Virus record (IMG/VR): IMGVR_UViG_3300023707_000001 | Strand: one strand, 5' to 3' | DNA: 64,000 nucleotides | DNA from: a virus | Lineage: Duplodnaviria > Heunggongvirae > Uroviricota > Caudoviricetes | Part shown: piece after piece, positions 3,198 through 57,235 of the stretch | Numbering within the stretch: the stretch's first letter is position 1 | How the letters are laid out: every line of letters starts with the position of its first letter | Position numbers and translations under genes: made by a program | The notes under the pieces: model-generated | The model's input: only the letters and a program-made list of their open reading frames with translations | The model's database searches: none | Told to the model about the DNA's origin: nothing

Positions 3198-3199
3198 GT

Positions 3200-7724: not shown

Positions 7725-7741
7725 GGCTCATTCCTCCGTCT

Positions 7742-8014
7742 TCACATAATCCTGCGTGATTTCGCCGTTATCAATGGCCTTGCGCAGATTATCTTCGACA
7801 TCCAAATTGGAATCATAGGACGGCAAATCCCGCACATCGAACACAATGTGCCGCTATCCTCATCCGTGCCGTCGTCGCTGCCGAATTCGTCCAGGCCAAA
7901 ACAGTATTCACGAACCCCGCCTTCATGGTCGTCATGTCTGTAAATGTGATAGATAAACACCCCCTTATGCTTTAATACCAATTCGTTAGGAATCCATTTC
8001 AGTGCCATAACCAA
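7742..8014 (-). CDS. hypothetical protein (90 aa)
   Basis: Minus ORF. Confidence 0.4.
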   Translation of the reverse strand: MVMALKWIPNELVLKHKGVFIYHIYRHDDHEGGVREYCFGLDEFGSDDGTDEDSGTLCSMCGICRPMIPIWMSKIICARPLITAKSRRIM

Positions 8015-8317
8015 TCACTCCTTATCATGTTTCTTTGCTTCATTGTAAAAATTAATCAGGGCTATTTCAAAATCCGCCATTAACTCTCGCATATCGCTAA
8101 TACTGTATGTCTCAAATGGCGCCCAGATATCCATGCACTTTCCGTTTTCATCTTCGTACGATAGTTCATCGGCCCCACATTCATATTCTTCATCCCGATC
8201 AACTTTATCCATGAATGCGTCCGGGTCATCCGGCCAATCACTTTCACCGACGTTGCAGAAATAATGCTTAAAAGCCTCTTCGTGGGCCATTTCTCTGATT
8301 TTATCATTAACCGCCAC
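8015..8317 (-). CDS. hypothetical acidic protein, paralog of 3200..3583
   Basis: See 3200..3583. Confidence 0.5.
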   Translation of the reverse strand: MAVNDKIREMAHEEAFKHYFCNVGESDWPDDPDAFMDKVDRDEEYECGADELSYEDENGKCMDIWAPFETYSISDMRELMADFEIALINFYNEAKKHDKE

Positions 8318-8336
8318 AGTTATTCACGCTCCTTTT

Positions 8337-8876
8337 TCATAACCTTGACAAATATTTTGCCGGCACTCTGTCCGTTAACCATACGCCATTGACGGACTGG
8401 TAGAACAGGAAACCATCCCTGTACATCTCACCAGCAAACACCCTGTAAATAATATTCTTGCCTTTGCGTCTGGCCGCTACCTTTGTCGCGGTTTCTACGT
8501 TCTCCGATAAATGTACATGCAGCCTATTTCCTTTTATCAGTCCTTTTGCCTCAATGGAAGCGCTGTTCTTTTCTACAGTACCGTGATATAGTACGGCGGG
8601 CGGTTTCACCGGCTTCAGCTCCACATCCACATGTATCGAATGTCCCTGGTTGGCTCTTATCTTTTTTCTGTCTGCGCTGAACGAAAACCTTTGTTTGTCG
8701 TTCTCTGCGACAATTCTCTCCAGCAGGGGAAGGTCTATACTGTGGCCTGTCTTATTTATTTTTTGCAGCAGTTCTTCCACATTAGCCCAGCCATGCTCGT
8801 CAAGCGTGATGCCTATTGTCTCTGGCTTATGGCGCAAAATCAGAGATAAGAATTTGCTTAGCTTCTTTAGCTCCAT
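8337..8876 (-). CDS. kptA: RNA 2'-phosphotransferase (Tpt1/KptA family)
   Basis: Strong match to KptA/Tpt1 signature blocks: LSKFLSLILRHKPE, GW, KQRF, IRANQGHS, LYHGT, LHVHLS, ATKVAARRKG, NGVWLT. Confidence 0.9.
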   Translation of the reverse strand: MELKKLSKFLSLILRHKPETIGITLDEHGWANVEELLQKINKTGHSIDLPLLERIVAENDKQRFSFSADRKKIRANQGHSIHVDVELKPVKPPAVLYHGTVEKNSASIEAKGLIKGNRLHVHLSENVETATKVAARRKGKNIIYRVFAGEMYRDGFLFYQSVNGVWLTDRVPAKYLSRL

Positions 8877-8879
8877 GAT

Positions 8880-9317
8880 TTAAGCCTCTCCGTTATATCT
8901 GTATTTATCGCCATACAGCTCTTTTATCCAGTAACGCAGTGTATCCCAGGCTACACCCAGGTTGGCATCGTGATGTGCTTTTACTTCATGCAACACATGG
9001 GCGGCTTCCTGTCTGGTCATGCCTAAATCCCGATAAAGTACTTCTGTGTTGCTTTTATCAAAGGCTACCAGCATATCGAGAACATCATCTACGGTCCAGA
9101 TAATTTCAATCTGTTCCGGGTACTTTGTTTCTTCCATTTTTTCCTCCTCAAACCAGGTCATCATGTTTTTGAAGCAGACAACCTTGTCATAGCACTTTTT
9201 CCCATTTTCCTGCGCTACGGGGCAATGCTTACAGTCTAAGCCTGTGGCCATAGTCAGAGCGAGTTCTTCCTCCGTTAGCGTTGCCAGGCATTCAATCAAT
9301 TTCTCTTTGTTTGCCAT
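8880..9317 (-). CDS. hypothetical protein (145 aa)
   Basis: Minus ORF immediately upstream of kptA. Confidence 0.45.
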   Translation of the reverse strand: MANKEKLIECLATLTEEELALTMATGLDCKHCPVAQENGKKCYDKVVCFKNMMTWFEEEKMEETKYPEQIEIIWTVDDVLDMLVAFDKSNTEVLYRDLGMTRQEAAHVLHEVKAHHDANLGVAWDTLRYWIKELYGDKYRYNGEA

Positions 9318-27096: not shown

Positions 27097-27546
27097 TCAT
27101 TTTGTAAGTATAGCGGTAAGCCACCCACTTACAAAGCCGATGCCGCCCAGGATAAATACGGTCTTGAATTTTTCCCAGGTACTCGGATATACGCCGTTAA
27201 GCTTGGCATCCCACTCGCGCCAGTTAACCTGGCCACGCGGATATGCTTTCTCATCGATATAGCAATCGGCGTAAACTTTGGGGCTGAAACGGTTATCCCC
27301 TGTGCGGGCAATCCATTCAGCTGCATGCTGCGGGTCATTTTTATTTACCGCATCAAACTCAAGACCGGCCTCTCGGCACGCTTTAACAGCTTTTTCCAAT
27401 GCTTCGTCATGTCGGCACGTCCACAGGATAATCTTGTGGCCATTCTTCTTGGCCCGGCGCAAAACATTGATGGCCGGAAAAAACAGCTTTACCTCGGGAT
27501 ACGTGCCAAAGCTTAAGGTTTCGTCGAAATCTACGGCTACAATCAT
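27097..27546 (-). CDS. HAD-superfamily phosphatase (149 aa)
   Basis: N-terminal VDFDETL (DxDxT) catalytic motif, Pnkp-phosphatase-like. Confidence 0.6.
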   Translation of the reverse strand: MIVAVDFDETLSFGTYPEVKLFFPAINVLRRAKKNGHKIILWTCRHDEALEKAVKACREAGLEFDAVNKNDPQHAAEWIARTGDNRFSPKVYADCYIDEKAYPRGQVNWREWDAKLNGVYPSTWEKFKTVFILGGIGFVSGWLTAILTK

Positions 27547-28190: not shown

Positions 28191-28946
28191 CTACGCATCG
28201 CCTCTTTTTGTGTTTATTATTCTTTCGTGTATTGCCGCTTTTATGAATTTATTTAAATCTTCAAGCGGCTGGGGGTTTGGTTTTTGGTCCACAAAAAAGG
28301 ATTCCACTTCCTTTGCGTGATTGCGGTAATTATCCAAATGAAACTTTACCGTTTTCAGTGAAAATTCCCCTTCTTTGAACCAAAGTAATGCATCTCGGCA
28401 CATACTATCTTGTTCGTACCAAAAAGCGCTTGCAAAATATCGAGTTTTATAATACCTCGTAAGAAAGTCCACTACACGTATAGCGTGATGGGCGCTCTTA
28501 GGGTCGTATCCATACGTTTGAATTGCCTCATGCCTAGCGGGCGAGTCCATCAACATCAGCTTTTCCTTTTGAATAGACGTTCCCATCGATGCTGCATATA
28601 AGCGAGGCAGATTCATTGTTGCCAGCTTTTCCCTATTCTCTGTTAAATAATCAATCAGGGTAGAATTGCCGCTCAATTCTCTGGAATACAGGATTTCAAT
28701 AAAGTTTAGATTCGCTTTCCAAAGTAAACTCGGAAGCTTGCGAATATCATGGATGGTATAATCTTCCGTATTGGTGACAACTTCTTTATGATATTCCTGA
28801 TTGCGATAAAGGTCCTCAAACGTTGGCCACACGAAATACTTGTAGTCTTTATCGGACTTTGGTGTGTTCAAGTTATAATTATGGCTACCTACCAACGCTT
28901 TCAGGCAAATGGCGTGGCCATCAACAATGTCTCCGACATCAAACAC
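28191..28946 (-). CDS. pol-beta-superfamily nucleotidyltransferase (251 aa)
   Basis: hGS-x10-SDKD pattern (LVGSHNYNLNTPKSDKDY), the G[GS]...DxD signature of the pol-beta NTase fold. Confidence 0.55.
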   Translation of the reverse strand: MFDVGDIVDGHAICLKALVGSHNYNLNTPKSDKDYKYFVWPTFEDLYRNQEYHKEVVTNTEDYTIHDIRKLPSLLWKANLNFIEILYSRELSGNSTLIDYLTENREKLATMNLPRLYAASMGTSIQKEKLMLMDSPARHEAIQTYGYDPKSAHHAIRVVDFLTRYYKTRYFASAFWYEQDSMCRDALLWFKEGEFSLKTVKFHLDNYRNHAKEVESFFVDQKPNPQPLEDLNKFIKAAIHERIINTKRGDA

Positions 28947-29308: not shown

Positions 29309-29543
29309 TTTTACCCCCTGCTTTCCAACTGTGTTTTAAAGTTATCAAAGTCTTCCGAGACTTTATTGCCCTGCCCCGTTTCTTCTCCGAGCTGTTCGAA
29401 AATGGTGTCGAAGGCACACCAATGCATGCCTTCGGTATCACCATCGTTGAAGGGGCAACCGTCTCCTTCTCCGGACTGGTTCTTGCATTTTTCTTTTGCG
29501 TATTCCTGCAAGAGCCCCAGGAGCCGCTGCTTGTTTATGAGGT

Positions 29544-32588: not shown

Positions 32589-32681
32589 ATATAATTACTG
32601 GCGGACAGGGCACGATTCGAACGCGCGCGCCGCATCACTGCGACCTAGTGAGGTTCAAGCTCACCCTCTTCAACCACTTGA
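32589..32681 (-). tRNA. tRNA-Ser(TGA), type II
   Basis: Reverse complement folds as GGACAGG/CCTGTCC acceptor, anticodon loop CTTGAAC, long variable arm, T-loop TTCGAAT and encoded CCA. Confidence 0.75.
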
Positions 32682-33066
32682 GTACCTGTCCATGATAAAT
32701 GCGGCAATGAGTATTCAGACGGTTCCCCTACACTGACGGGACCTTTCGGGCGTTTATTTATTGTCTCCGCCCGAAGAAGATACCTGCAGCCGCATGTAGC
32801 AGGCATATTTATAGTGTTTGCGCACTTGGAGCTGTTGGAATTGCACAGACTTCGCATCCGGAATTGAAGCCTGTACGCACCAACACTTATTACCACCAGG
32901 ACGCCCGTCGGCGTGTCGGGAATCGAAACCCGCTCTTACTGTCCAATGTAGGAACTCCTTATAAAGGGAAACCCTGGACTCGAACCAGGCTGACCACCAC
33001 GGACCCCGCAGGGCGTCGGGAATCGAACCCGAATGCTCTTTTCCGCCACCTGACGTTTCCCATAAT

Positions 33067-33143
33067 ATGGTGCCCCTCCAGAGATTCGAACTCTGACTGT
33101 ACCGGGCTTAAACCGGTTGCCTCTGCCAATTGGGCTAGAAGGG
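33067..33143 (-). tRNA. tRNA with anticodon TAA (Leu-decoding) but short variable arm (atypical type I)
   Basis: Acceptor GCCCTTC/GAGGGGC, anticodon arm ACCGG-TTTAAGC-CCGGT, T-arm CAGAG-TTCGAAT-CTCTG, CCA encoded. Confidence 0.5.
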
Positions 33144-33149
33144 CATAAT

Positions 33150-33236
33150 ATGGTGCGCCTAGCAAGACTTGAACTTGCACGGTATCACTACCAGGAGATT
33201 TTGAATCTCCCATGTCTGCCAATTCCATCATAGGCG
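33150..33236 (-). tRNA. tRNA-Leu(CAA), type II
   Basis: Acceptor GCGCCTA/TAGGCGC, anticodon arm GGAGA-TTCAAAA-TCTCC, variable hairpin GGTA-GTGA-TACC, CCA encoded. Confidence 0.75.
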
Positions 33237-33242
33237 CATAAT

Positions 33243-33319
33243 ATGGTGTGATTGGTGCGATTTGAACGCACGACCTGCCGCTTAGGAGGCGGCTGCTCTA
33301 TCCAACTGAGCTACAACCA
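33243..33319 (-). tRNA. tRNA-Arg(CCT)
   Basis: Acceptor GTGGTTG/CAATCAC, D-arm GCTCAGTTGGATAGAGC, anticodon loop CTCCTAA, T-loop TTCAAAT, CCA. Confidence 0.75.
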
Positions 33320-33325
33320 CATGAT

Positions 33326-33388
33326 ATGGAGGCTTGGGCCGGGATCGAACCGGCGTGAAACGGTTTTGCAGACCGTTGCCTAACCACT
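33326..33388 (-). tRNA. tRNA-Cys(GCA), 3' portion only (gene interrupted by the IscB element)
   Basis: AAGTGGTTAGGC-AACGGT-CTGCAAA-ACCGT...GCCGG-TTCGATC-CCGGC-CCAAGCC-T-CCA closely matches bacterial tRNA-Cys from the D-loop onward. The 5' acceptor strand GGCTTGG is missing locally and is found 1.6 kb away at 34994-35003. Confidence 0.55.
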
Positions 33389-33390
33389 TA

Positions 33391-33437
33391 AAACGCGGCG
33401 CGGGGGACTCCACCCTCTACAGAGTGGAGGTGAGCGC
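33391..33437 (-). terminator. nested GC-rich hairpin at iscB 3' end (terminator or IS right-end structure)
   Basis: gcggcgc-ggggga-ctccac-cctctacaga-gtggag-gtga-gcgccgc: a 7-bp outer and 6-bp inner stem. Confidence 0.35.
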
Positions 33438-34685
33438 CGCTTCTCTCCTTTCGACTAAATACGAATTATTATGCATCAAAAATGTTATTTTTGATGGTGC
33501 TACTTCAGCCTTAGTTCCGTCTAGGTGCTTTAAGACAAAAGAACCTTTGACTCTCATACCTCTCACAAACCAGCATTGCTTTTGATAAAACACTGTGTCA
33601 TTTAAGCAGAACCCCCGAACAATATGTCCGGCTTGTGCTCGCTTACGAACGCCGCCTTTTGCTGGCACTTCGCGATGCAACTTACGGTTATGCCGACGAA
33701 TTTGTTTACGAAGATATTCGTAGTTGAGCCGTTCTGCATTGATATTGCCCGCAATACAGTAGGCGTCTGCCGAATGTGTTTTTGTAATACCATTTTTGAT
33801 GCGAGTGTTTTTCGTGATGTAGCCGTATGTTAAATGCACATCAGGATATTGCTCTTTAAGCTTGTTGTAAAAAGCCCAACGCATAATTCCCATGAAAGTC
33901 GCGTCTCGGAATCTCATGCCACGATGTATTGTCTTCGGTAAAGAGATATTGCCTTGATGATATCCCTGATGGCAGGTTTCACAAAGCGTTATCAGGTTAT
34001 TCGGCGCATTGCCTCCAGTCATACGACTTTCAATATGATGTACATTGAGTATTGGGTCGCCAGAACTCCCTTTACAGCACTGACATTGATGACCATCACG
34101 GAATAATACGTATTCACGAACATTCGCCCATCCAAACTGTTCTCCCTGCTGATATTCGACCCCAGAAATATCAGGATTCTTGATTTTCTGAATATCGAAT
34201 TGAGCTACTTCTACAATAACTTTCGTTACCGGAAGAATCTTATGGATATCCGCCACAAGCTTTAGATGAACATTGATTTTGTTCTCCACGCTTGGCGCAA
34301 GCCAACCTTTGTGTTTACGGCGAACCCGATTCAAAAATCTTACTTTGCGATACCGTGTCTTGCGGTTCCGGCGACTGTGACGAAGTTCTAACCGTTTAGC
34401 CAAAAGCCTTACAATAGATGCTTTGCCATCACCAGAGCGCATAATCGTTTCTGAAGCATATAATTCTTGTTTCTCTGTTGATGCTGAGGCTCCGATATGT
34501 ACAGAGCCAGCATCAATACCAAGAGTTATTGGCTGTTTATAGCCAGCTGAGCCATATTTCAACTTAATTGTAAACGGCTCATATTTTACAACCATAGCTT
34601 TGTTTTCCCTCAGCAGCTTTCTAGCTTTCTGAGGTTTACAAGGCATTAACGGTTGTCCGTTTTTATTGATAACGTACACGAACAT
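33417..34685 (-). CDS. iscB: IscB (OMEGA RNA-guided nuclease, Cas9 ancestor)
   Basis: 422 aa with N-terminal PLMP domain (VINKNGQPLMPC), RuvC-I (LGIDAGS), Arg-rich bridge helix, HNH (CQCC...NVHHIESR...N..LCETCH) and RuvC-III. AGGAGG RBS 8 nt upstream. Confidence 0.85.
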   Translation of the reverse strand: MFVYVINKNGQPLMPCKPQKARKLLRENKAMVVKYEPFTIKLKYGSAGYKQPITLGIDAGSVHIGASASTEKQELYASETIMRSGDGKASIVRLLAKRLELRHSRRNRKTRYRKVRFLNRVRRKHKGWLAPSVENKINVHLKLVADIHKILPVTKVIVEVAQFDIQKIKNPDISGVEYQQGEQFGWANVREYVLFRDGHQCQCCKGSSGDPILNVHHIESRMTGGNAPNNLITLCETCHQGYHQGNISLPKTIHRGMRFRDATFMGIMRWAFYNKLKEQYPDVHLTYGYITKNTRIKNGITKTHSADAYCIAGNINAERLNYEYLRKQIRRHNRKLHREVPAKGGVRKRAQAGHIVRGFCLNDTVFYQKQCWFVRGMRVKGSFVLKHLDGTKAEVAPSKITFLMHNNSYLVERREAALTSTL

Positions 34686-34993
34686 AACGTGTACCTCCTT
34701 TCCGAAGCTGAAGCTTCAAATTAGAGTAAATCTACCCTTCGCCAATGTTGTAATCGCTTGCCCGCAATGGCGGGCCGTCCTTAGGTTGACCGTTCCTCCT
34801 CTCAGAACTTTTACAGAGCCTACACAGAGCGGGGAGCTAGGATAAACACCCACGGGTGTGATAACGAAAACAACGTAGTCCGAGGCTTTTTCAAGCACTT
34901 GTCTAATACCGGACTTAGGCTAGTCGGTAAGAGCTTGCTTTCGCAAGCTCCCGCCTTCAAGCGCAAAGCGCTAGACGGGGGTTATTGACTAGA
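34686..34993 (-). ncRNA. IscB omegaRNA (HEARO-like), 5' guide expected at the tRNA-Cys junction
   Basis: About 300 nt directly upstream of iscB, ORF-free and hairpin-dense (GGGAGCTTGC-GAAA-GCAAGCTC, ACACCCGTGGGTGT, GCCCGC-CATT-GCGGGC), running up to the tRNA 5' fragment. Confidence 0.6.
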
Positions 34994-35003
34994 CTACCAA
35001 GCC
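34994..35003 (-). tRNA. tRNA-Cys(GCA) 5' fragment (GGCTTGGTAG)
   Basis: Exact complement of the 3' acceptor strand CCAAGCC at 33329-33335; it sits directly after the array spacer CATAATAAGG. Confidence 0.4.
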
Positions 35004-35011
35004 ATAATAAG

Positions 35012-35160
35012 GGGCAGTGGCGGGAATCGAACCCGCAACCAGCATCACCTATAAACTGTTTGCAACCAGTGTTATAGGCATGTTCTGTTTTATATCGGCG
35101 CAACCATTTCGTTAAGAGTCCTGTTTGCAACCAGAAAACTTAATATAGCCGACACTGCCA
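35012..35160 (-). tRNA. tRNA-like gene with ~70-nt internal duplication (probable pseudogene)
   Basis: Acceptor GGCAGTG/CACTGCC and T-arm GCGGG-TTCGATT-CCCGC are 149 nt apart; the anticodon-like module CTGGTTGCAAACAG occurs twice. Confidence 0.3.
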
Positions 35161-35169
35161 TGATAATAT

Positions 35170-35245
35170 TGGTCGGGATGACAGAATTCGAACCTGCGGC
35201 CTCCTGCTCCCAAAGCAGGCGCTGCCACCACTGAGCTACACGCGG
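35170..35245 (-). tRNA. tRNA-Pro(TGG)-like, acceptor stem not complementary (possible pseudogene)
   Basis: D-arm TAGCTCAGTGGTGGCAGC, anticodon arm CCTGC-TTTGGGA-GCAGG, T-loop TTCGAAT and CCA are present, but 5' CCGCGTG does not pair with 3' CATCCCG. Confidence 0.4.
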
Positions 35246-35579
35246 ATGATAGATATCCGGTTCGCAGGGAGCTCGACTAAGCGGTTGCCCTTTGTAGATA
35301 TCTTCACTATGCATCTTATCCTCTCTTCGCCGCATCGAGTCGGGAGCTACACCTAACTCTTTGGATAATACGCATAAAAATATTCAACTCGATGTACATA
35401 ATAAAGTCCGGAAGGTGTCCCGGTCTTGCCCCGGCTACTCACTTTTGTTTTGAGCTTTTGCCGGTGCCGATATATGGCCATATGACTTGTCCGTATCTTT
35501 ATCATACGGGAAAAGCCGACGCCAATATACCAGCGTTCTTTTCCTTCATCGTCAGACGTTAGCCTGATTTTGAAGATGA

Positions 35580-35662
35580 TGGCAGGGGTAACTGGACTCG
35601 AACCAGTGTAAGTAAATCGGAGCTTCAAAGGCTCCCGCCTTAACCAACTTGGCTATACCCCT
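35580..35662 (-). tRNA. tRNA-Gln(TTG) with unusually long (11 nt) variable region
   Basis: Acceptor AGGGGTA/TACCCCT, D-arm GCC-AAGTTGGTTAA-GGC, anticodon arm GGAGC-CTTTGAA-GCTCC, T-arm ACTGG-TTCGAGT-CCAGT, CCA. Confidence 0.6.
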
Positions 35663-35667
35663 AAGAT

Positions 35668-35724
35668 GAGGGACGGCAGGGTTCGAACCTGCGACGCATT
35701 GCGCCCGCCTCTCAACGACCCCTC
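35668..35724 (-). ncRNA. ~57-nt anticodon-arm-less tRNA-like element (mini-tRNA)
   Basis: Acceptor-like stem plus intact T-arm GCAGG-TTCGAAC-CCTGC, with only about 23 nt between them. Confidence 0.3.
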
Positions 35725-35963
35725 ATAAGTGGAAGGCTGTATTCCTTTCGTGCACAGCACACCGAAGCACTACCCAGAATGTTATACTGTCTGAGCGCAG
35801 TTGTTTCTTGAACAATAGCTAAAAAGGCTTTCGCCCGTACAACTCTCAATCTTTATTAAGAGCTCTACGGGCGCCTGAACCGAAGTTCAGAGCGCTCGCT
35901 ATTTTGTTTGTTTCTTAGAAAAAGGAGAGGAACTTACAAGGCTTTCGCCTTGCTTATTCCATA

Positions 35964-35995
35964 TGGTGGACCCCCTCGGACTTGAACCGAGGACC
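35964..35995 (-). tRNA. tRNA 3' remnant (T-arm + acceptor 3' strand + CCA) abutting the HNH endonuclease gene
   Basis: CTCGG-TTCAAGT-CCGAG-GGGGTCC-A-CCA; no matching 5' half. The HNH gene's stop codon is 19 nt away. Confidence 0.4.
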
Positions 35996-36013
35996 CGCGT
36001 CCACTGATTTTGT

Positions 36014-36643
36014 TTATGCGCCATACTTTTCGTACGACTTTATCCATTTTGCTATGGCCTTACCAGAAACGCCATAGCGCCGTCCCATCTCAGATTTGTT
36101 GCGACCAACTTCTTCATACTCTTTGAAGAATTCTTCTTTCGTTGGACGCACCGTCTTTCTTGCCCAGGGACGTATATTTCCTAAGACCGCTTCATCGACA
36201 TCATAATGGTTACAGAATTTTTCTTTTTCCATCGCTTTTTTTGCAACTTTTTCTTCTGCTATACGAACTCTTTCTTTTAGTGGAACAATCCATTTTTCGT
36301 ATTCATTAAGTTTGTGCTGTCCTTTAGCATGTTCTTCGGCATGGCAGTTAGCGCAAAGAAGAACACATTTGTCTAATTCCTTTTTTAAGCGATGCCAGCC
36401 GAGATTGTATTTTTGTCCAATGCCAAAATTCTTTTGCTGGGGGTCGAGATGATGGAATACCAATGCATTTTCGCATTTATCGTATCCGCATACCTGACAT
36501 TTCCTGCCTTTGTACTTAACAGCTCTTTGTTTCAAAAGCTTTTTTCTATAGTTTTGTCTGCAAGTGTTACAAATGTCTTTTGAGTGTCCTTTACTGCGGC
36601 CATATTCATATTCATTGCCACAAACTTTACATACATATTTCAA
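36014..36643 (-). CDS. HNH homing endonuclease with C-terminal HTH
   Basis: HNH core VFHHLDP...N...LLCANCH with a flanking Zn-ribbon CKVCG...CNTC; C-terminal GRRYGVSGKAIAKWIKS helix-turn-helix. Confidence 0.7.
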   Translation of the reverse strand: MKYVCKVCGNEYEYGRSKGHSKDICNTCRQNYRKKLLKQRAVKYKGRKCQVCGYDKCENALVFHHLDPQQKNFGIGQKYNLGWHRLKKELDKCVLLCANCHAEEHAKGQHKLNEYEKWIVPLKERVRIAEEKVAKKAMEKEKFCNHYDVDEAVLGNIRPWARKTVRPTKEEFFKEYEEVGRNKSEMGRRYGVSGKAIAKWIKSYEKYGA

Positions 36644-36725
36644 TTCATATCACCGTAGGCAACATTACCTATTGTGTGAACTTAAAACATGATGTTAGTT
36701 CAAAAAGTGCTCACAAATTAATTAA

Positions 36726-36804
36726 TGGTCCAGGCGGTGGGACTTGAACCCACGTAAGACACGGCTTATAAGGCCGCCGCTACCACCAACTTAGCTACGC
36801 CTGG
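36726..36804 (-). tRNA. tRNA-Ile(TAT) (AUA decoder)
   Basis: Acceptor CCAGGCG/CGCCTGG, D-arm GCTA-AGTTGGTGG-TAGC, anticodon arm GCGGC-CTTATAA-GCCGT, T-arm GTGGG-TTCAAGT-CCCAC, CCA. Confidence 0.55.
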
Positions 36805-40003: not shown

Positions 40004-40033
40004 GCCGCTTCAAGACGTTAACCTTGTCGCGGC
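40004..40033 (+). promoter_or_regulatory. conserved hairpin gccgc-ttcaag-ACGTTAAC-cttgtc-gcggc
   Basis: As above. Confidence 0.4.
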
Positions 40034-40035
40034 CG

Positions 40036-40433
40036 TGGAGACGACGGGAGTCGAACCCGTGTCCAAAATGCATCCACCTGTAAGACATTATCGCAATAGG
40101 CATTTTTAAGAGCGCCATTCTCTAGGGTGTAACCAGCCGAACAAAGCGTAATGGTCTACACCTCCACCACCTGCTTTTTCGAAAGCAGGAAAACTCCCCG
40201 TGTTGTTTACGTCGAGCGGGCCTCCTGACGTTTGCTGTGTTTATTTGAAACCTACCGCCCTGCTCACAGCTAGTGATACGATAGGGGCTAACCAATCTAC
40301 CTTACGGCAGATTAGGCAGCGAGACGATATTCAACTTCGTCAGTTAAATTTAGCGGTTAATGAGTTAGACGTCATAACCATCGGTCTGCGAATCTTACGG
40401 CTTCAACACCCTGTCGAAACCAATTTCGTCCCC
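40036..40433 (-). ncRNA. ssrA: tmRNA (ssrA) candidate, tag ending ...DEVEYRLAA
   Basis: 5' GGGGACGAAATTGGTTTCGACAGGG and 3' GGACACGGGTTCGACTCCCGTCGTCTCCA closely parallel E. coli tmRNA ends (GGGGCUGAUUCUGGAUUCGACGGG ... GGACGCGGGUUCAACUCCCGCCAGCUCCACCA). The acceptor pairs GGGGACG/CGTCTCC. An internal frame reads ...ACT GAC GAA GTT GAA TAT CGT CTC GCT GCC TAA. Confidence 0.65.
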
Positions 40434-42053: not shown

Positions 42054-42058
42054 ATGAT

Positions 42059-42129: not shown

Positions 42130-42139
42130 TGTATGATAT

Positions 42140-42222
42140 AGGGGCAGGGAGGAATCGAACCACCATCATAAGAAAGCCCCATTTGCTTTCTCGTCCGCTC
42201 TAGCCATTTGAGCTACTGCCTC
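42140..42222 (-). tRNA. tRNA-like gene with 7-bp anticodon-like stem and non-canonical loop AAATGGG
   Basis: Acceptor GAGGCAG/CTGCCCC, D-arm GCTC-AAATGGCTA-GAGC, hairpin AGAAAGC-AAATGGG-GCTTTCT, T-loop TTCGATT. Confidence 0.3.
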
Positions 42223-43083
42223 ATTATGGGGGCGACTTGTTTTACATCCTGCCGCCTTCGGATATGCGGTCAACCGTTGCCTCTACCGCCAGGGGGAATT
42301 TATACGATTTTTTTCCTTATCGGGTTTTATCGTCTTTTCCTTGACACGTATGATACAATAGACATCGGCTGAGAATATCGTAAAAATACTTTATCTACCT
42401 TTCACAAAACATGCATAACAAATGCTCCTCACCGAGCATTCCTTGCTACTGGGCAAGCACGGTAGCAATACATGTAGGCCAGGTATGGGATAACAGCTCG
42501 CAATCTTGCAAAAGACCTCGCGACCTGCCCGCCCCGCTGAAGTTTTTCCAAAAAACTTAGAAAGGAAGATTTAGCCATGGAATTATCCTTGACTCCGGAG
42601 TTTTTCGACTCTTTGCGCGATGCGCTGTATGCCGTCGCACTCGTAGTTTTAGCGTTTAAGTCCTAATACTTGCATAAAACGATATTCCCGGCTATTTTTA
42701 TATCTATTGCATCATACCTGCCAAGGAGGCAGGTATTTTTTGATTGCTGCTCGTCTCAAACAGCTTGGCTACTCAGCGTCGGTGTAGCCTCTCGTGCCGG
42801 GTTTTAACGGCTTTTCCTTGCCGTTGCCCACGGTCGAACCGTGAAAGCCTTGCACCTATCCGGCTTGTCCTCTAGGGCCGGATGTACCGTATTTCTTTAG
42901 GCGTTCATACGGTGTCCTCATTGGAGACTTTCTACCACTGGCCAAGTTTCTTTCTGGGCGCTCCGGAGGCTTGCAGGAAGCGGTACAGCCTCTCTGCATT
43001 CTTTATTCGCTGCATGGTTCTCTTGGCAACCAGCAGTCAGGTCACGCATGTTTTATGGCCGACATTAGTGTCGGTCGCAAAAT

Positions 43084-43380
43084 TTAAAAATCTGAATCTC
43101 GCTCGTAAGTTTCCTCAATTTTATATGAGTGAATTTCTAAGCGATGTTCACCATCGTTGTAATACGCGCCATTGTCACAATCTTCAAGGCCGTATTCATT
43201 AACCCAGTCGTCATAGCATGCCTGGGCGGCTTCGGCGTTTGAAAAAACACCCATAACGTCCTGGTCATAATCATCGCATAAAGTTTGGTGAATAACCATA
43301 TATACTGTCATATTCTTCTCTCCTAAAACAGGATTCTCATAAGGTGGACGATATTCTATGGCCTCATCCGGGCCAGTCAC
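43084..43380 (-). CDS. hypothetical acidic protein (98 aa)
   Basis: Minus ORF inside the RNA-gene region. Confidence 0.4.
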   Translation of the reverse strand: MTGPDEAIEYRPPYENPVLGEKNMTVYMVIHQTLCDDYDQDVMGVFSNAEAAQACYDDWVNEYGLEDCDNGAYYNDGEHRLEIHSYKIEETYERDSDF

Positions 43381-43391
43381 ATGGAGGGGAT

Positions 43392-44036
43392 TTATTCAAA
43401 GCTGCCAAAACTAATAGTCGGAAACACTTCCTGGCGCATCTTTATTATCTGCTTTCGCTTTTCATCGAAATAAACAAGACAGTTTTCGGGAATACGGCCG
43501 ACTACCTCAAAAGTTCGCACGAAAGGCATTTCCAATAAACCTACGAATGGATTCTTCTCTCTTATATCAAGTGAACCCTCGTAAGATGTTCCCAGGATAA
43601 CCCATGTCTGCGCATCGGCAGTGATTTCGCTTTCCAGAATATCACGTACATCCTGTGTTGTTCCTGCGCTTGCGAATTCGTCAATGAACGTTACTGTGCG
43701 TCGTTTATCCGAACACAATGTAATCATATTGTGCTCATTGGGAACGATGTCGATTTGCGGATACTGTTTCTTGTAATCATCGCCAAGGACTTCTTTTAGA
43801 GTCCTTTCCATAAATTTGGAATGAACTATATAACCGCACTTAATGACAATGTGGTCAGCCATATCTTGGGATAAGATTTTCTTTACCGCATTGGCGATAA
43901 AAGTGGTTTTGCCAAAACGACGGTCTACGTTGATTGCTGTTATGCCGCCGTCGATAAGATTCGCCAATGGAATCTTATCAAACCAATCTCCAGCCCCATA
44001 GCTGCAAATAACTTGTTTTTCAAGACAATTGCTCAT
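43392..44036 (-). CDS. RecA-superfamily P-loop ATPase (RadB/KaiC/Sak4-like, 214 aa)
   Basis: G.GDWFDKI...LIDGGI...VDRRFGKTTF parallels the RecA/KaiC Walker A region; Walker B VTFIDEF. Confidence 0.5.
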   Translation of the reverse strand: MSNCLEKQVICSYGAGDWFDKIPLANLIDGGITAINVDRRFGKTTFIANAVKKILSQDMADHIVIKCGYIVHSKFMERTLKEVLGDDYKKQYPQIDIVPNEHNMITLCSDKRRTVTFIDEFASAGTTQDVRDILESEITADAQTWVILGTSYEGSLDIREKNPFVGLLEMPFVRTFEVVGRIPENCLVYFDEKRKQIIKMRQEVFPTISFGSFE

Positions 44037-44203
44037 TATATGCTACCTCAGTGTTTCTTACCAGTAGTAGCTACATAGCGGCCCATCAGCCAGCCGTTCA
44101 TAACCGGCGTATTTACCGTAGCGCAGCATTTTGCCTTGGGATAAAACAGGCTCTTACCAACTCTGCTTCCTTTTGTGTTGTTAGAATAAGTTTTTACCAT
44201 AGA

Positions 44204-44431
44204 TTAACCAAACCTTTCTATCAAAAAATTCATTATGTTTTTTATGAGGAAGCCAAGCGCCGGCCCTGCGATAAACACAACCACTGCAAGCACAATTGCT
44301 CCTTCATAAAGTTTTGAAGCTATTAATACAACAAGAAGTGTTGCAATAACCACTGCACAAGTTGCAACCAAGTAAGTTGCATACTCACATATTTTATCTA
44401 GTGTTTCTTCCGAGAAAAACAAGTTGAACAT
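44204..44431 (-). CDS. small membrane protein (75 aa)
   Basis: Two TM helices. Confidence 0.4.
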   Translation of the reverse strand: MFNLFFSEETLDKICEYATYLVATCAVVIATLLVVLIASKLYEGAIVLAVVVFIAGPALGFLIKNIMNFLIERFG

Positions 44432-44456
44432 TTTTATCTTTCTCCGTTATTTAAAA

Positions 44457-44542
44457 TGGAGCCCCCGGTCAGATTCGAACTGACGTGTCCTTTCGGAACC
44501 GGTTTACAAAACCGGTGCAATCGGCCTCTATGCGACAGGGGC
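44457..44542 (-). tRNA. tRNA-Thr(TGT) with 12-nt variable region
   Basis: Acceptor GCCCCTG/CGGGGGC, anticodon arm CCGGT-TTTGTAA-ACCGG, variable TCCGAAAGGACA, T-arm GTCAG-TTCGAAT-CTGAC, CCA. Confidence 0.6.
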
Positions 44543-44548
44543 GTAATA

Positions 44549-44624
44549 TGGAGCGGAAAACGAGACTCGAACTCGCGACACCCGACTTGGAAGGACGGTG
44601 CTCTACCAACTGAGCTATTTCCGC
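44549..44624 (-). tRNA. tRNA-Gly(TCC)
   Basis: GCGGAAA-TA-GCTCAGTTGGTAGAGC-A-CCGTC-CTTCCAA-GTCGG-GTGTC-GCGAG-TTCGAGT-CTCGT-TTTCCGC-T-CCA; near-identical architecture to bacterial tRNA-Gly. Confidence 0.8.
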
Positions 44625-44627
44625 AAA

Positions 44628-44703
44628 TGGCTCCCCGAGCTGGACTCGAACCAGCGACATATGGATTAACAGTCCACCGTTCTACCGGCTGAACTATCGG
44701 GGA
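44628..44703 (-). tRNA. tRNA-Asn(GTT)
   Basis: TCCCCGA-TA-GTTCAGCCGGTAGAAC-G-GTGGA-CTGTTAA-TCCAT-ATGTC-GCTGG-TTCGAGT-CCAGC-TCGGGGA-G-CCA. Confidence 0.8.
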
Positions 44704-44798
44704 AGGGCGTAGGCAGTTAGGTCATACCCAGGACCTATTCTGTTTCCCTCATATCAGGGCCGTTGTAAGCCGACATGAGTGGCCGAATAGTAACCATT

Positions 44799-44830
44799 CC
44801 TTAGTGTTGTTTCTTGCCGGACGTTAACCC
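44799..44830 (+). promoter_or_regulatory. conserved hairpin gtttc-ttgccgg-ACGTTAAC-ccggtt-cgaaac
   Basis: Lies 15 nt 3' of tRNA-Ser(GCT). Confidence 0.4.
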
Positions 44831-44844
44831 GGTTCGAAACATGA

Positions 44845-44936
44845 TGGCGGAGCCGGTTGGATTTGAACCAACGATACCCTATAATGGGTATAACACCTTA
44901 GCAGGGTGCCGCCTTAAGCCTCTCGGCCACGACTCC
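44845..44936 (-). tRNA. tRNA-Ser(GCT), type II
   Basis: Acceptor GGAGTCG/CGGCTCC, anticodon arm GCACC-CTGCTAA-GGTGT, long variable hairpin TATACCC-ATTA-TAGGGTATC, T-loop TTCAAAT, CCA. Confidence 0.75.
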
Positions 44937-45173
44937 GGTTGAGCAGTTATTTCATGCTCAGGAACTACTCTGTTTTCCAATTCTACCGACGGATTAAGGC
45001 AGTCTCGTGGCCGAATAGTAGCCATTTTTTGTCATTAAGACCGTCTGGGACTCAACAACATATATCTAATCCCTTTGCAGGGGATTATTCATAGAATACT
45101 GCATTTGGTACTTGGCTCAGGGGGGGTAATGATACCACGCTGCAGTGGGCGTCCAGGAAATTGTTAGCCTCTA

Positions 45174-45192
45174 ACCAGACGTTAACCTGGTG
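45174..45192 (+). promoter_or_regulatory. conserved hairpin aaccag-ACGTTAAC-ctggtg
   Basis: Fifth copy of the motif. Confidence 0.35.
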
Positions 45193-45316
45193 TTGGGCAT
45201 TATCAGGCGGCCGGCAATTTTTACATCCCTCGACCGCGAAGGATACCGCTTTCGCGGCACTACACGTAGTGTTGCGCCCAGTCGGTTGATCGGACCAACC
45301 GGACTAATATTAGCTA

Positions 45317-45391
45317 AGCCAATGCCAGGACTCGAACCTGGGTCGCCGAGGTTACAGTTTCGGTGCTCTCTCCCTATTGAGCTACATCGGC
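45317..45391 (-). tRNA. tRNA with 18-nt anticodon arm (8-nt loop; anticodon TGT or GTA ambiguous)
   Basis: Acceptor GCCGATG/CATTGGC, D-arm GCTC-AATAGGGA-GAGC, anticodon arm CCGA-AACTGTAACC-TCGG, T-arm CCAGG-TTCGAGT-CCTGG; no CCA encoded. Confidence 0.45.
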
Positions 45392-53847: not shown

Positions 53848-54342
53848 TTATTTCTTTCGATTTAACCTATCGATACACTTCCAGACTTGATAATCCGTTA
53901 ATCCTACCATTTCATCCGTCTTGACCATTTGTTCCGGATAGAGGGCCAGAATATCGAAGTCCTCGTCATCCAATATGGCAAAAGTATCGACATTCTCATC
54001 ATAGTCGTGCGTTATAAGCCATTCCCGGATTTGTTCTCCGCGTCTATTGTTGTTAATAGGCGTTACATCCTCTATGGCCATGCCGTATTCAGCTAAACGC
54101 TGTTTGAGCCGGTCGCAAGTACCATGCTCATAACCAGCGCGCCATGATGATGACAGTATGATTTTTGCGCCGGTTTCATCTATGATTTTCTTCAAGAGCT
54201 CAAATGGCTTATCGCTTATGAGCTTCACAGAGAACCGGTCTGCAGCGGAATTCATCACACCGTCAACATCAAGGAACAGATATTTCATGCTATTCTTCCT
54301 CCAGCGCGTCGTTAATCTTATCCAGAGCATCGTCGGCTTCAA
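53848..54342 (-). CDS. HAD-superfamily phosphatase (HAD-SAK-like, RNA-repair-associated type)
   Basis: LFLDVDGVMN (DxDGV) catalytic motif at the N-terminus; small-cap HAD. Confidence 0.55.
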   Translation of the reverse strand: MKPTMLWIRLTTRWRKNSMKYLFLDVDGVMNSAADRFSVKLISDKPFELLKKIIDETGAKIILSSSWRAGYEHGTCDRLKQRLAEYGMAIEDVTPINNNRRGEQIREWLITHDYDENVDTFAILDDEDFDILALYPEQMVKTDEMVGLTDYQVWKCIDRLNRKK

Positions 54343-56842: not shown

Positions 56843-57235
56843 TCATTTCGGCTTACCCTCCGGTTCTTCGGAGGATTTTATAATCTTCTCGATAGCCTTT
56901 AACTGCTTAAGTGTGAGCTTATGACTTCCTCCGCCCCAACCAAAGAATTTTTGAAGCTCTTCGTGAAGTCGGCCTGCTTCTTCTCGGTCCTCGATTTCCT
57001 GCATCGAACAAAATGCTAACCAATTTGAGTTGTATTCGGATTCACCTCGTAAGGTGTTCTTATCAAATCGGCTACCTTCTTCGCCTCCGAAGTATACGCC
57101 CTCAATTTTGACGTACAGGTATTTTCGGCCAACCTTTGTTACGACCCCCTTACGAACATCCGAACCATAATAACGCGCGAGACTGCCTGTAGGAATAACG
57201 TACAATTCCTGTCCCGCTTCTATTTTATCGCTCAC
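56843..57235 (-). CDS. hypothetical protein (130 aa)
   Basis: Minus ORF overlapping the ligA start by 4 nt (translational coupling). Confidence 0.45.
   Translation of the reverse strand: MSDKIEAGQELYVIPTGSLARYYGSDVRKGVVTKVGRKYLYVKIEGVYFGGEEGSRFDKNTLRGESEYNSNWLAFCSMQEIEDREEAGRLHEELQKFFGWGGGSHKLTLKQLKAIEKIIKSSEEPEGKPK

What the first reader, a model, noticed from the sequence alone, without database searches (positions are those of the whole stretch)
8337..8876. Phage-encoded Tpt1/KptA with HAD phosphatases, a pol-beta NTase, LigA and a large tRNA/tmRNA set: candidate RNA end-healing / tRNA-repair countermeasure module
The Tpt1 match is unambiguous. In established biology Tpt1 removes a junction 2'-phosphate left by fungal/plant-type tRNA ligases and can also ADP-ribosylate 5'-phosphorylated nucleic-acid ends. 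Bacteria have no known substrate for it. This phage additionally encodes two HAD phosphatases with Pnkp-like or HAD-SAK-like DxD motifs (27097-27546, 53848-54342). It also encodes a pol-beta-fold nucleotidyltransferase (28191-28946) directly beside one HAD. An NAD+-dependent ligase and at least 12 tRNAs plus a tmRNA complete the set. This resembles the logic of the T4 Pnkp/Rnl repair of anticodon-nuclease damage, but with a different enzyme complement and no recognisable RNA ligase in the window. So either the sealing enzyme is novel or encoded elsewhere, or Tpt1 is used for NAD+-dependent end modification. NAD+ availability links Tpt1 and LigA.
Basis: partly seen in the sequence, partly recalled or inferred. 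Interest (0 to 1): 0.7.

Follow-up and report, generated by a model that had tools for sequence, protein, structure and literature searches.

The report
Ordinary Tpt1 gene in a jumbo phage
A large uncultivated phage carries an intact copy of the RNA 2'-phosphate-removing enzyme Tpt1 plus two other scattered RNA-repair-type genes, which fits a published but untested idea that big phages mend tRNAs cut by host defences; it is not a new kind of system.

Summary
The ORF at 8337-8876 (-) is a genuine, full-length Tpt1/KptA RNA 2'-phosphotransferase. Pfam gives E 8.7e-48, the NCBIfam equivalog score is above its cut-off, and the protein is 52% identical to the biochemically proven Runella Tpt1, with the Arg-His-Arg-Arg tetrad intact.

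The gene lies on a contig of at least 226 kb that looks like an uncultivated jumbo phage of a Clostridia-type host.

Two do not: 27097-27546 is a BT0820-type HAD with a hydrophobic C-terminal tail, and LigA is an ordinary NAD+ DNA ligase.

The parts are not a module. They lie 19-45 kb apart and their neighbours are not conserved. HAD_SAK_2 is present in one relative and absent from another.

No RNA ligase, 2H enzyme or recognisable polynucleotide kinase occurs in the window plus 10 kb each side. That is about 84 kb of at least 226 kb.

Tpt1 homologues on other elements sit near HD-Pnk, Pnkp-like, RlaP, Thg1 or RtcB genes, which supports an RNA-repair role.

The idea itself (phage KptA, SAK-HAD, RlaP and tRNAs against tRNA-cleaving defences) was already published from comparative genomics and is untested. 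Verdict: real, and a new member of a known kind.

The parts
8337..8876 (-). Tpt1/KptA RNA 2'-phosphotransferase, 179 aa, catalytic tetrad R15-H16-R63-R118
   Evidence: Pfam PF01885 E 8.7e-48. NCBIfam NF002014 245.9 bits, above cut-off 239. PHROG 5470 E 2.9e-74. PDB 7kw8 E 3.5e-50, 52% identity, tetrad aligned.
28191..28946 (-). Divergent RlaP-family pol-beta nucleotidyltransferase (predicted RNA 3'-end nucleotide adder), 251 aa
   Evidence: Own Pfam RlaP hit is borderline (22.1 against 23 bits). All 33 aligned homologues hit PF10127 and no other family. G20-S21, D32-x-D34, D62 and D67 are invariant. AF2 pLDDT 95.7 shows an NTase domain plus a helical domain. Best viral folds are phage 'nucleotidyltransferases' at TM 0.83-0.88; baculovirus HE65 and an 'RNA repair pathway protein' also match. 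PDB gives only weak KNTase/HalB matches, TM about 0.4.
53848..54288 (-). Stand-alone 'Swiss-army-knife' HAD phosphatase (HAD_SAK_2), 146 aa by public gene calls; the ORF extends to 54342
   Evidence: Pfam PF18143 E 3.8e-25, 89.3 bits against cut-off 27.5. PHROG 1818. Gene call of 146 aa. DxD motif in LDVDGV (sequence). Absent between its conserved flanking genes in related contig L023; present at 80% identity in L041.
32599..36804 (-). tRNA cluster 1 (Ser-UGA, Ser-CGA, Leu-UAA, Leu-CAA, Arg-CCU, Pro-UGG, Gln-UUG, Ile-UAU), interrupted by an IscB gene and its HEARO RNA
   Evidence: ARAGORN; Rfam RF00005.
40033..40433 (-). tmRNA, tag peptide DEVEYRLAA
   Evidence: ARAGORN; Rfam RF00023 90.7 bits.
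42140..45391 (-). tRNA cluster 2 (Thr-UGU, Gly-UCC, Asn-GUU, Ser-GCU, one of undetermined identity, plus a weak Rfam-only tRNA at 42140-42222)
   Evidence: ARAGORN; Rfam.
27097..27546 (-). It is BT0820-type and ends in a hydrophobic C-terminal stretch.
   Evidence: NCBIfam NF046079 E 8.6e-22; PHROG 1238 E 2.4e-23; HAD_PNKP only E 0.09. C-terminal stretch FILGGIGFVSGWLTAIL read from the sequence (no membrane-helix predictor was run). Not adjacent to RlaP in relatives.
57232..59145 (-). NAD+-dependent DNA ligase LigA; judged a replication enzyme, not part of an RNA-repair set
   Evidence: Adenylation, OB, HhH and BRCT domains. Nlig-Ia domain on the identical gene in L016. TIGR00575 E 7.6e-99. 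Conserved at 73-74% identity in related contigs.

Best explanation
Shown: 8337-8876 encodes a catalytically intact, canonical Tpt1/KptA. It is carried as one of many small co-directional, tightly packed genes of an uncultivated element of at least 226 kb that looks like a jumbo phage.

Inferred host: a Clostridia-type (Lachnospiraceae-like) bacterium. This rests on the nearest named homologue and the GGAGAGG-type ribosome-binding site.

Inferred mechanism: during infection the enzyme uses NAD+ to remove 2'-phosphates from RNA. These are most likely internal 2'-PO4 groups at repaired tRNA junctions, because its nearest characterised relative, RslTpt1, does only that reaction. [quoted passage not shown]

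Inferred setting: Tpt1 is one piece of a dispersed, non-operonic translation-rescue toolkit. The other pieces are an RlaP nucleotidyltransferase (restores lost 3' nucleotides), a SAK-type HAD phosphatase (end phosphate clean-up), 13-14 phage tRNAs and a tmRNA. The toolkit would counter host nucleases that cut tRNAs.

Unknown: the enzymes that would create the 2'-PO4 (a 2H-type cyclic phosphodiesterase) and seal the break (an RNA ligase) are not in the 84 kb examined. They are presumed to be elsewhere in the genome or supplied by the host.

Each toolkit gene behaves as an independently gained or lost accessory gene rather than as part of a fixed cassette.
For: Identity and active site. RslTpt1 is active on internal 2'-PO4, complements yeast tpt1-delta, and is inept at terminal phosphate removal and 5'-capping (PMC6097658, PMC6573784).

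Co-resident RNA-repair families: HAD_SAK_2 and RlaP. RlaP adds 1-2 NMP to damaged RNA 3' ends (PMC12776372).

tRNAs and tmRNA.

Tpt1 recurs with RNA-repair genes on independent elements:
- L019, a 189-kb viral contig: HD+AAA_33 (HD-Pnk type), PTH2, RNase T, an E/Q-type aminoacyl-tRNA synthetase, AAA_28, then Tpt1, then AAA_33+Metallophos (Pnkp type), a weak isochorismatase-type match, and an ADP-ribosylglycohydrolase.
- L022, Tpt1 85% identical: an RlaP homologue next to Thg1, 9 kb away.
- L034, a conjugative element, 68% identical: two Metallophos genes and RlaP within 7 kb.
- L031, 80% identical: RtcB three genes upstream.

A close relative, L041 (LigA 74% identical), carries SIR2 and a microbial PARG near its HAD_SAK_2. 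This echoes the sirtuin/SAK-HAD RNA-repair neighbourhoods described in PMC9503650.

The same reading of jumbo-phage KptA, SAK-HAD, RlaP and tRNAs is published (PMC7824862, PMC9503650).
Against: No RNA ligase, 2H/LigT, RtcB or recognisable polynucleotide kinase was found in the window or in 10 kb on each side. This holds by Pfam, by PHROGs for the first half of the window and by motif scan.

The three enzymes are 19-45 kb apart and are not syntenic in relatives.

In cultured phages Tpt1 sits alone among hypothetical genes.

The tRNA set lacks the classic anticodon-nuclease targets Lys and Tyr and could equally serve codon supply.

No phage Tpt1 has been tested experimentally in the literature I could search.

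No pathway that makes internal 2'-PO4 RNA is known in Clostridia.
Confidence: 0.5

Rival explanations
1. Passenger gene. Tpt1 was recently captured from the host lineage, as often happens in large phages. It has no dedicated role in infection, or only a marginal housekeeping-like one. Its co-residence with RlaP and HAD_SAK_2 would simply reflect the large accessory gene load of jumbo phages.
For: An 80%-identical homologue lies in a bacterial-looking context (Y-family polymerase, RtcB, RadC, SSB). A Lachnospiraceae MAG homologue is 63% identical. The gene sits beside an ISL3 transposase, a TnpB fragment and a segmental duplication. Its neighbours are not conserved.
Against: The exact protein is kept on 18 contigs from many samples. 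All four catalytic residues are intact. GC and GC3 are within about one SD of the window's genes, so it is not a fresh arrival. Tpt1 recurs in 98 GenBank phage records and near RNA-repair genes on independent elements.
Confidence: 0.15
2. Eraser of a 2'-phosphate mark rather than a splice-junction cleaner. Tpt1 would remove internal 2'-phosphates installed by a kinase. These could be tRNA Up47-type modifications, or a so far unknown host defence or toxin that 2'-phosphorylates RNA. Removal would re-tune or rescue tRNAs without any ligase.
For: KptA homologues, E. coli KptA included, erase tRNA 2'-phospho-U47 in vitro and in vivo, and ArkI kinases exist in some bacteria (PMC9095486). This would explain the absence of a ligase, 2H enzyme or kinase in 84 kb.
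Against: ArkI is mainly found in thermophilic archaea (PMC9095486). No ArkI-like kinase or RNA 2'-kinase toxin is known for Clostridia or seen here. Co-occurrence with RlaP, Pnkp-like genes and Thg1 elsewhere points to broken-end repair.
Confidence: 0.12
3. NAD+-dependent end modification. Tpt1 would ADP-ribosylate 5'-phosphate ends of RNA or DNA (5'-phospho-ADP-ribose cap), or strip terminal 2'/3'-phosphates. This would protect phage nucleic acids or condition ends. It is the first reader's second option.
For: Some Tpt1 enzymes cap 5'-P ends or remove terminal 2'/3'-PO4 (PMC6573784, PMC12678800). Terminal 3'-P removal would create the 3'-OH that RlaP needs (PMC12776372).
Against: The closest characterised enzyme, RslTpt1 (52% identity), lacks both activities. 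The enzymes that have them match far less well: 6e3a/6ede at E 8e-30 and 1wfx at E 2e-23, which from memory are the C. thermocellum and A. pernix enzymes (PMC6573784). No ADP-ribose-removing Macro, ARH or NADAR gene was found in the window.
Confidence: 0.1

Closest known systems
Runella slithyformis Tpt1 (RslTpt1; PDB 7kw8 by my assignment) and its putative bacterial RNA-repair gene cluster
   Same: 52% identical over the full length, same size (179 against 178 aa), identical Arg-His-Arg-Arg tetrad. RslTpt1 is a proven NAD+-dependent internal 2'-phosphotransferase whose natural substrate is likewise unknown (PMC6097658).
   Different: [quoted passage not shown] Here Tpt1 has no such neighbours within 10 kb, and the element is phage-like.
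Jumbo-phage KptA-based NAD+-dependent RNA-repair systems predicted by comparative genomics (Iyer et al. 2021, PMC7824862; Iyer et al. 2022, PMC9503650)
   Same: Same cast: KptA, stand-alone 'Swiss-army-knife' HAD, RlaP, many phage tRNAs, an NAD+ ligase in the same genome, and the same proposed purpose (countering tRNA-cleaving defences).
   Different: The published scheme needs a 2H phosphoesterase and an RNA ligase. Neither was found in the 84 kb read here. The host lineage (Clostridia-type, uncultivated) and the phage lineage are new: no GenBank relative was found.
Phage T4 Pnkp + Rnl1 repair of PrrC-cleaved tRNA-Lys
   Same: Same biological logic: a phage-encoded fix for tRNA cut by a host nuclease. 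T4 also carries an RlaP (NrdC.11) that, by my recollection of the T4 map, is not adjacent to its ligase genes (PMC12776372 for the RlaP assignment).
   Different: T4 yields a clean 2'-OH junction and needs no Tpt1. No Pnkp kinase domain and no Rnl1/Rnl2 was detected here.
kptA genes of cultured phages (C. difficile phiCD211 group; Erwinia Ea35-70, Y3 and AH06 jumbo phages)
   Same: 43-53% identical stand-alone Tpt1 genes, already annotated as RNA 2'-phosphotransferase, embedded among hypothetical genes.
   Different: Different phage lineages with no shared synteny. None has been functionally tested in the literature searched.

Membership tests
Tpt1/KptA RNA 2'-phosphotransferase (PF01885) | Full-length match to the family model above curated thresholds | tested here: met
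   Pfam 163.1 bits against cut-off 26, model positions 4-176 of 177. NCBIfam equivalog NF002014 245.9 against 239 bits.
Tpt1/KptA RNA 2'-phosphotransferase (PF01885) | Essential Arg-His-Arg-Arg catalytic tetrad (Rsl R16, H17, R64, R119) | tested here: met
   R15, H16, R63 and R118 align with the tetrad in the 7kw8 alignment. Essentiality from PMC6097658.
Tpt1/KptA RNA 2'-phosphotransferase (PF01885) | NAD+-dependent removal of an internal RNA 2'-PO4 (enzymatic activity) | not testable with these tools
   Needs recombinant protein or yeast tpt1-delta complementation.
RlaP (RNA-ligase-associated pol-beta NTase, PF10127) | Match to PF10127 | tested here: inconclusive
   The protein itself scores 22.1 bits against cut-off 23, E 1.4e-4. 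All 33 homologues (35-65% identical) hit PF10127 and nothing else, best E 2.1e-9. It is therefore a divergent subfamily.
RlaP (RNA-ligase-associated pol-beta NTase, PF10127) | N-terminal NTase domain with GS motif and three catalytic Asp, plus a C-terminal helical domain | tested here: met
   Invariant G20-S21, D32, D34, D62 and D67. The AF2 model (pLDDT 95.7) has a beta-rich N-domain followed by helices 95-247. Architecture as described for PfRlaP (PMC12776372). The PfRlaP structure did not appear in the PDB copy searched.
RlaP (RNA-ligase-associated pol-beta NTase, PF10127) | Gene neighbourhood with an RNA ligase (RtcB or a 5'-P ligase) | tested here: not met
   No ligase within 10 kb here or around homologues in L023, L025, Bacillus phage vB_BcoS-136 or Brevibacillus phage Sundance. 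The family name rests on neighbourhood in bacteria, so this is not a strict criterion in phages.
HAD_SAK_2 (HAD domain of 'Swiss-army-knife' RNA-repair proteins, PF18143) | Family model match and HAD motif I (DxD) | tested here: met
   89.3 bits against cut-off 27.5, full model 1-139. LDVDGV motif in the sequence.
T4-type Pnkp/Rnl heal-and-seal system | 5'-OH polynucleotide kinase domain and an ATP-dependent RNA ligase (KxDG nucleotidyltransferase) | tested here: not met
   No AAA_33/PNK, RNA_ligase or RNA_lig_T4_1 hits. KxDG in a protein of ligase size occurs only in LigA, and the only P-loop is an AAA_28 protein outside the window. Only about 84 kb of at least 226 kb was examined.
Fungal/plant Trl1-Tpt1 pathway (the established source of Tpt1 substrates) | 2H cyclic phosphodiesterase producing a 2'-PO4 end, a ligase requiring it, and intron-containing tRNAs | tested here: not met
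   No 2H motif pair or LigT/CPDase Pfam hit. ARAGORN in intron mode gives only one implausible intron call.
NAD+-dependent DNA ligase LigA | Ia, adenylation, OB, HhH and BRCT domain series | tested here: met
   This supports an ordinary DNA-replication role, not RNA sealing.
T4 Pnkp-type HAD phosphatase (claimed for 27097-27546) | Match to the PNKP phosphatase-domain model | tested here: not met
   HAD_PNKP E 0.09, 13.3 bits against cut-off 27.6. The best matches are BT0820-family HAD, E 8.6e-22, and PHROG 1238.

The most novel reading that the evidence does not exclude
Clostridial mobile elements carry only RNA end-conditioning enzymes as individually mobile genes: Tpt1, RlaP, SAK-HAD or metallophosphatases, Thg1. 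This is seen on this jumbo phage, on a second phage-like contig and on a conjugative element. No element-encoded ligase appears in any of the stretches examined here. That pattern would fit a repair route that hands ends to a host ligase such as RtcB. Alternatively, Tpt1 might reverse an as yet unknown host-installed RNA 2'-phosphate. Either would give bacterial and phage Tpt1 its long-sought natural substrate.
Probability: 0.1. Interest if true: 0.65.

Novelty: new member of a known kind. Interest (0 to 1): 0.25.

Why it matters
The natural substrate of Tpt1/KptA outside fungal and plant tRNA splicing is a long-standing puzzle. Retention of intact Tpt1 genes by phages argues that a substrate appears during infection.

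This particular copy adds a new, uncultivated phage lineage to a list of about 100 already annotated phage Tpt1 genes. It shows that Tpt1, RlaP and SAK-HAD behave as separately exchangeable accessory genes.

It does not make the question more testable than the cultured Tpt1-carrying phages (phiCD211, Erwinia jumbo phages) already do.

Tried and rejected
**Relatives in GenBank.** Megablast of the Tpt1 region against GenBank phages gave no match. tblastn with 2316 aa of concatenated window proteins found only one widely shared protein, so no cultured relative exists to read the rest of the genome from.

**Reading the rest of the source contig.**
- The contig is Ga0216344_100026, 226,034 bp.
- The look-up of encoding contigs gave 10 kb on each side of the window.
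- The single metagenome scan did not return the contig.
- IMG/VR does not hold it.
- One neighbour-gene query in IMG/VR found nothing.
- About 140 kb therefore remains unread.

**Searching for a ligase, kinase or 2H enzyme.** I ran Pfam on all 165 ORFs, PHROGs on the first half of the window, Pfam on the flanks, and KxDG, 2H and P-loop motif scans. Only LigA and an AAA_28 P-loop protein outside the window turned up.

- 10379-10900 is a confident all-alpha protein (pLDDT 95.5) with 308 representative homologues, no Pfam family and no PDB fold match. It is therefore not a 2H, Rnl or RtcB fold.
- The C-terminal 85-aa domain of 8880-9317 occurs alone and without Tpt1 on another contig, so it is not a conserved Tpt1 partner.

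**Other checks.**
- Intron-containing tRNAs as a Tpt1 substrate source: none credible.
- Aminoglycoside-NTase identity for the NTase: rejected. TM is only about 0.4 at 12-14% identity, against TM 0.83-0.88 to phage RlaP-like NTases.
- The AFDB fold library was unavailable.
- Burroughs & Aravind 2016 could not be read.
Full report
**Observation**

The ORF at 8337-8876 on the minus strand encodes 179 aa. It starts at an ATG with a GGAGAGG ribosome-binding site a few bases upstream, inside the last codons of the upstream ORF. An AAGGAG site and the GTG start of the next gene follow its stop codon. No terminator-like site on the coding strand falls within 6 kb.

- It matches Pfam PTS_2-RNA at E 8.7e-48 over almost the whole model.
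- It matches PHROG 5470 at E 2.9e-74.
- It passes the curated cut-off of NCBIfam equivalog NF002014, 245.9 against 239 bits.
- Its best solved relative is chain 7kw8, E 3.5e-50, 52% identity over residues 3-176. I take 7kw8 to be Runella slithyformis Tpt1: its residues 16, 17, 64 and 119 are Arg, His, Arg, Arg, as reported for RslTpt1.
- R15, H16, R63 and R118 align with those four residues. Each is essential in RslTpt1 (PMC6097658).

The gene looks fully functional.

**What carries it**

The exact protein is encoded on 18 public contigs. The longest read was a 226,034-bp JGI metagenome contig. The window corresponds to about positions 71-135 kb of that contig, reverse-complemented. The identical upstream gene is on record on a contig of 339,914 bp.

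Nearly all genes run on one strand. GC is about 44%.

Pfam and PHROGs recognise few of the roughly 165 ORFs. There is no nucleotide match and no protein-level relative among GenBank phages.

Several features fit an uncultivated jumbo phage:
- Its RlaP, HAD_SAK_2 and a 239-aa protein have homologues in 142, 290 and up to 637 phage records.
- It carries 13-14 tRNAs and a tmRNA.
- Syntenic relatives exist among IMG/VR viral contigs, for example L041 of 211 kb.

No virion gene lies in the part I could read, so 'phage' remains an inference.

The nearest named cellular Tpt1 is from a Lachnospiraceae MAG at 63% identity. An 80%-identical copy lies in a bacterial-looking context. A Clostridia-type host is therefore likely. 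The gene's GC and GC3 are within about one SD of the window's genes.

**The other claimed parts**

*HAD_SAK_2, 53848-54342.* Confirmed at E 3.8e-25, 89.3 bits against cut-off 27.5. Public gene calls start it at 54288, giving 146 aa.

*RlaP, 28191-28946.* It hits RlaP only at the borderline, 22.1 against 23 bits. However:
- All 33 aligned homologues (35-65% identical) hit PF10127 and nothing else.
- The GS and Asp motifs are invariant.
- A pLDDT-95.7 model shows the NTase-plus-helical-domain architecture described for PfRlaP (PMC12776372).
- The best viral fold matches are phage nucleotidyltransferases at TM 0.83-0.88. Baculovirus HE65 and an 'RNA repair pathway protein' also match.
- Kanamycin nucleotidyltransferase and HalB match only at TM about 0.4.

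I file it as a divergent RlaP. RlaP enzymes add one or two nucleotides to damaged RNA 3' ends (PMC12776372).

*HAD, 27097-27546.* It is not Pnkp-like. It matches the BT0820 HAD family (E 8.6e-22) and PHROG 1238, against E 0.09 for HAD_PNKP. It ends in a hydrophobic stretch that could be a membrane helix.

*LigA.* It has the complete Ia, adenylation, OB, HhH and BRCT series and is conserved at 73-74% identity in relatives. It is an ordinary DNA ligase. Shared use of NAD+ is the only link to Tpt1.

- 10379-10900 is a confident all-alpha protein with many homologues, no Pfam family and no solved fold relative. It is not a 2H, Rnl or RtcB fold.
- The C-terminal domain of 8880-9317 occurs without Tpt1 elsewhere.

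**Is it a module?**

No. Tpt1, RlaP and HAD_SAK_2 lie at 8.3, 28.2 and 53.8 kb.

- Tpt1's neighbours are not shared with phiCD211, Erwinia phage AH06, the 189-kb viral contig L019 or the 97-kb contig L022.
- In the related 232-kb contig L023, the two genes that flank HAD_SAK_2 in this phage are adjacent, with no HAD between them. In the related L041 the HAD is present.
- In L036 against L037, an RlaP gene is present or absent between otherwise matching neighbours.
- The HAD next to RlaP here is not next to RlaP in L023 or L025. Only the 112-aa hydrophobic protein upstream of RlaP is conserved.

These genes behave as independently gained and lost accessory genes.

**Missing steps**

No RNA ligase, RtcB, 2H/LigT enzyme or recognisable polynucleotide kinase was found.

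- Pfam on all window ORFs.
- PHROGs on the first half of the window.
- Precomputed and fresh Pfam on 10 kb of flank each side.
- Motif scans for KxDG, paired HxT/S and P-loops.

The only P-loop protein is an AAA_28 protein 5.5 kb beyond the window start.

This covers about 84 kb of at least 226 kb. The rest could not be reached. 'No ligase' therefore remains an open point, not a finding. No credible intron-containing tRNA exists.

**Evidence from elsewhere for an RNA-repair role**

- In L019, Tpt1 (54% identical) sits among an HD+AAA_33 protein (HD-Pnk architecture), PTH2, an RNase T-like exonuclease, an E/Q-type aminoacyl-tRNA synthetase, a weak CYTH match, AAA_28, an AAA_33+metallophosphatase protein (Pnkp-like), a weak isochorismatase-type match and an ADP-ribosylglycohydrolase.
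- In L022 (85% identical) an RlaP homologue lies next to Thg1, 9 kb away.
- In L034, a conjugative element (68% identical), two metallophosphatases and an RlaP lie within 7 kb.
- In L031 (80% identical) RtcB is three genes upstream.
- In L041, a close relative of this phage, a SIR2 and a microbial-type PARG accompany HAD_SAK_2. Sirtuin/SAK-HAD neighbourhoods were proposed as a parallel to KptA-based repair (PMC9503650).

So four of the six independent Tpt1 contexts I examined (L019, L020, L021, L022, L031, L034) have RNA-repair-type genes within 10 kb. That is suggestive, but I did not test it statistically.

**Mechanism**

The chemistry is established for the family. The RNA 2'-PO4 attacks NAD+ to give a 2'-phospho-ADP-ribosyl intermediate. 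[quoted passage not shown]

The nearest characterised enzyme, RslTpt1, acts on internal 2'-PO4 only. It is inept at terminal phosphate removal and at 5'-capping (PMC6573784). By similarity, the internal 2'-PO4 reaction is the most likely one here; this is inference.

The biological setting, repair of tRNAs cut by host defence nucleases alongside RlaP, SAK-HAD, phage tRNAs and tmRNA, is also inference. It rests on the co-occurrences above and on the published comparative-genomic model.

**Comparison with what is known, and novelty**

Phage Tpt1 genes are already annotated in 98 GenBank phage records.

The specific hypothesis was set out by Iyer et al. 2021 (PMC7824862) and 2022 (PMC9503650): jumbo-phage KptA acting with 2H, RNA ligases, stand-alone SAK-HAD and RlaP, together with phage tRNAs, against tRNA-targeting immunity. 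I found no experimental test of any phage Tpt1.

KptA homologues, E. coli's included, erase tRNA 2'-phospho-U47 (PMC9095486).

The finding is thus a new member of a known kind, in a new and uncultivated phage lineage.

**Verdict**

It is wrong on 'module', on two of the parts and on novelty.
- Interest is low to moderate (0.25).
- The most novel reading still open is that mobile elements supply only end-conditioning enzymes and rely on a host ligase, or that Tpt1 reverses an unknown host-installed RNA 2'-phosphate. I give it about 0.1.

Noticed in passing
window 33417-34989 (-): An IscB-like protein (RRXRR E 5.4e-61 plus HNH, 422 aa, 33417-34685) lies directly downstream of a HEARO RNA (Rfam RF02033, 83.7 bits against gathering 83, 34726-34989). 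From memory, HEARO is the IscB guide (omega) RNA. The pair sits inside the phage's tRNA cluster.
   Followed up: partly
window 2901-3528 and 7428-8337; 4611-6223: A segmental duplication (85-96% DNA identity, two paralogous gene pairs) brackets a 3.9-kb stretch holding an ISL3 transposase (5162-6223, + strand) and a C-terminal TnpB fragment (4611-5102). The Tpt1 gene lies immediately beside the second copy, which ends at 8337, the last base of Tpt1's stop codon.
   Followed up: partly
L013:16101-16706 (about 5.5 kb beyond window position 1); L019:8588-9169; L036:9754-10344: An AAA_28 P-loop protein (about 200 aa) recurs with Tpt1 or RlaP on unrelated elements. It lies 0.8 kb upstream of Tpt1 in L019 (34% identical to this phage's copy), 14 kb from Tpt1 in this phage, and on the same contig as RlaP and Macro in L036. 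It could be a small-molecule (NAD-salvage type) kinase or a polynucleotide kinase.
   Followed up: partly
L041:417-980 and L041:14917-15681 (IMG/VR UViG_3300019373_000006, 211 kb, a close relative): The syntenic relative carries a SIR2 and a microbial-type PARG (Macro fold), the latter 1.2 kb upstream of its HAD_SAK_2. Neither was found in this window. Related phages seem to swap different NAD+/ADP-ribose enzymes around the same backbone.
   Followed up: partly
window 10379-10900 (-): A 173-aa protein with 308 representative homologues (conserved core about residues 88-168; invariant R98, D126, K142-I143-E144, N151, H153). The AF2 model is a confident all-alpha fold (pLDDT 95.5). It has no Pfam family and no solved-structure match, so it is an uncharacterised family.
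   Followed up: yes
window 40400-43400: The stretch after the tmRNA has raised GC (0.495 in 40-42 kb), few minus-strand ORFs and one weak Rfam-only tRNA (42140-42222). It may hold further non-coding RNAs.
   Followed up: no
window 44457-44542, 35580-35662, 33068-33144, 45317-45391: Several phage tRNAs have unusual shapes: Thr(UGU) with a long extra arm (86 nt), Gln(UUG) with a 10-nt variable loop (83 nt), Leu(UAA) without the usual long arm (77 nt), and one tRNA with a shortened anticodon loop of undetermined identity.
   Followed up: no
window 14731-15185, 8880-9317, 19597-19779, 24571-24744, 29311-29547: Small proteins with a similar Cys-rich N-terminal module recur through the window. Only the adjacent pair 14731-14961 / 14973-15185 is significant by BLAST (35% identity); the rest I saw by eye only.
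   Followed up: no
window 21474-21830, 29544-30368, 55260-55667, 56843-57235: Other recognisable accessory genes: DUF488-N3a, a DUF1599 'nucleotide modification associated' domain protein, a SocA/Panacea antitoxin-like protein, and a phage ProQ-C-like protein whose start overlaps the end of LigA.
   Followed up: no
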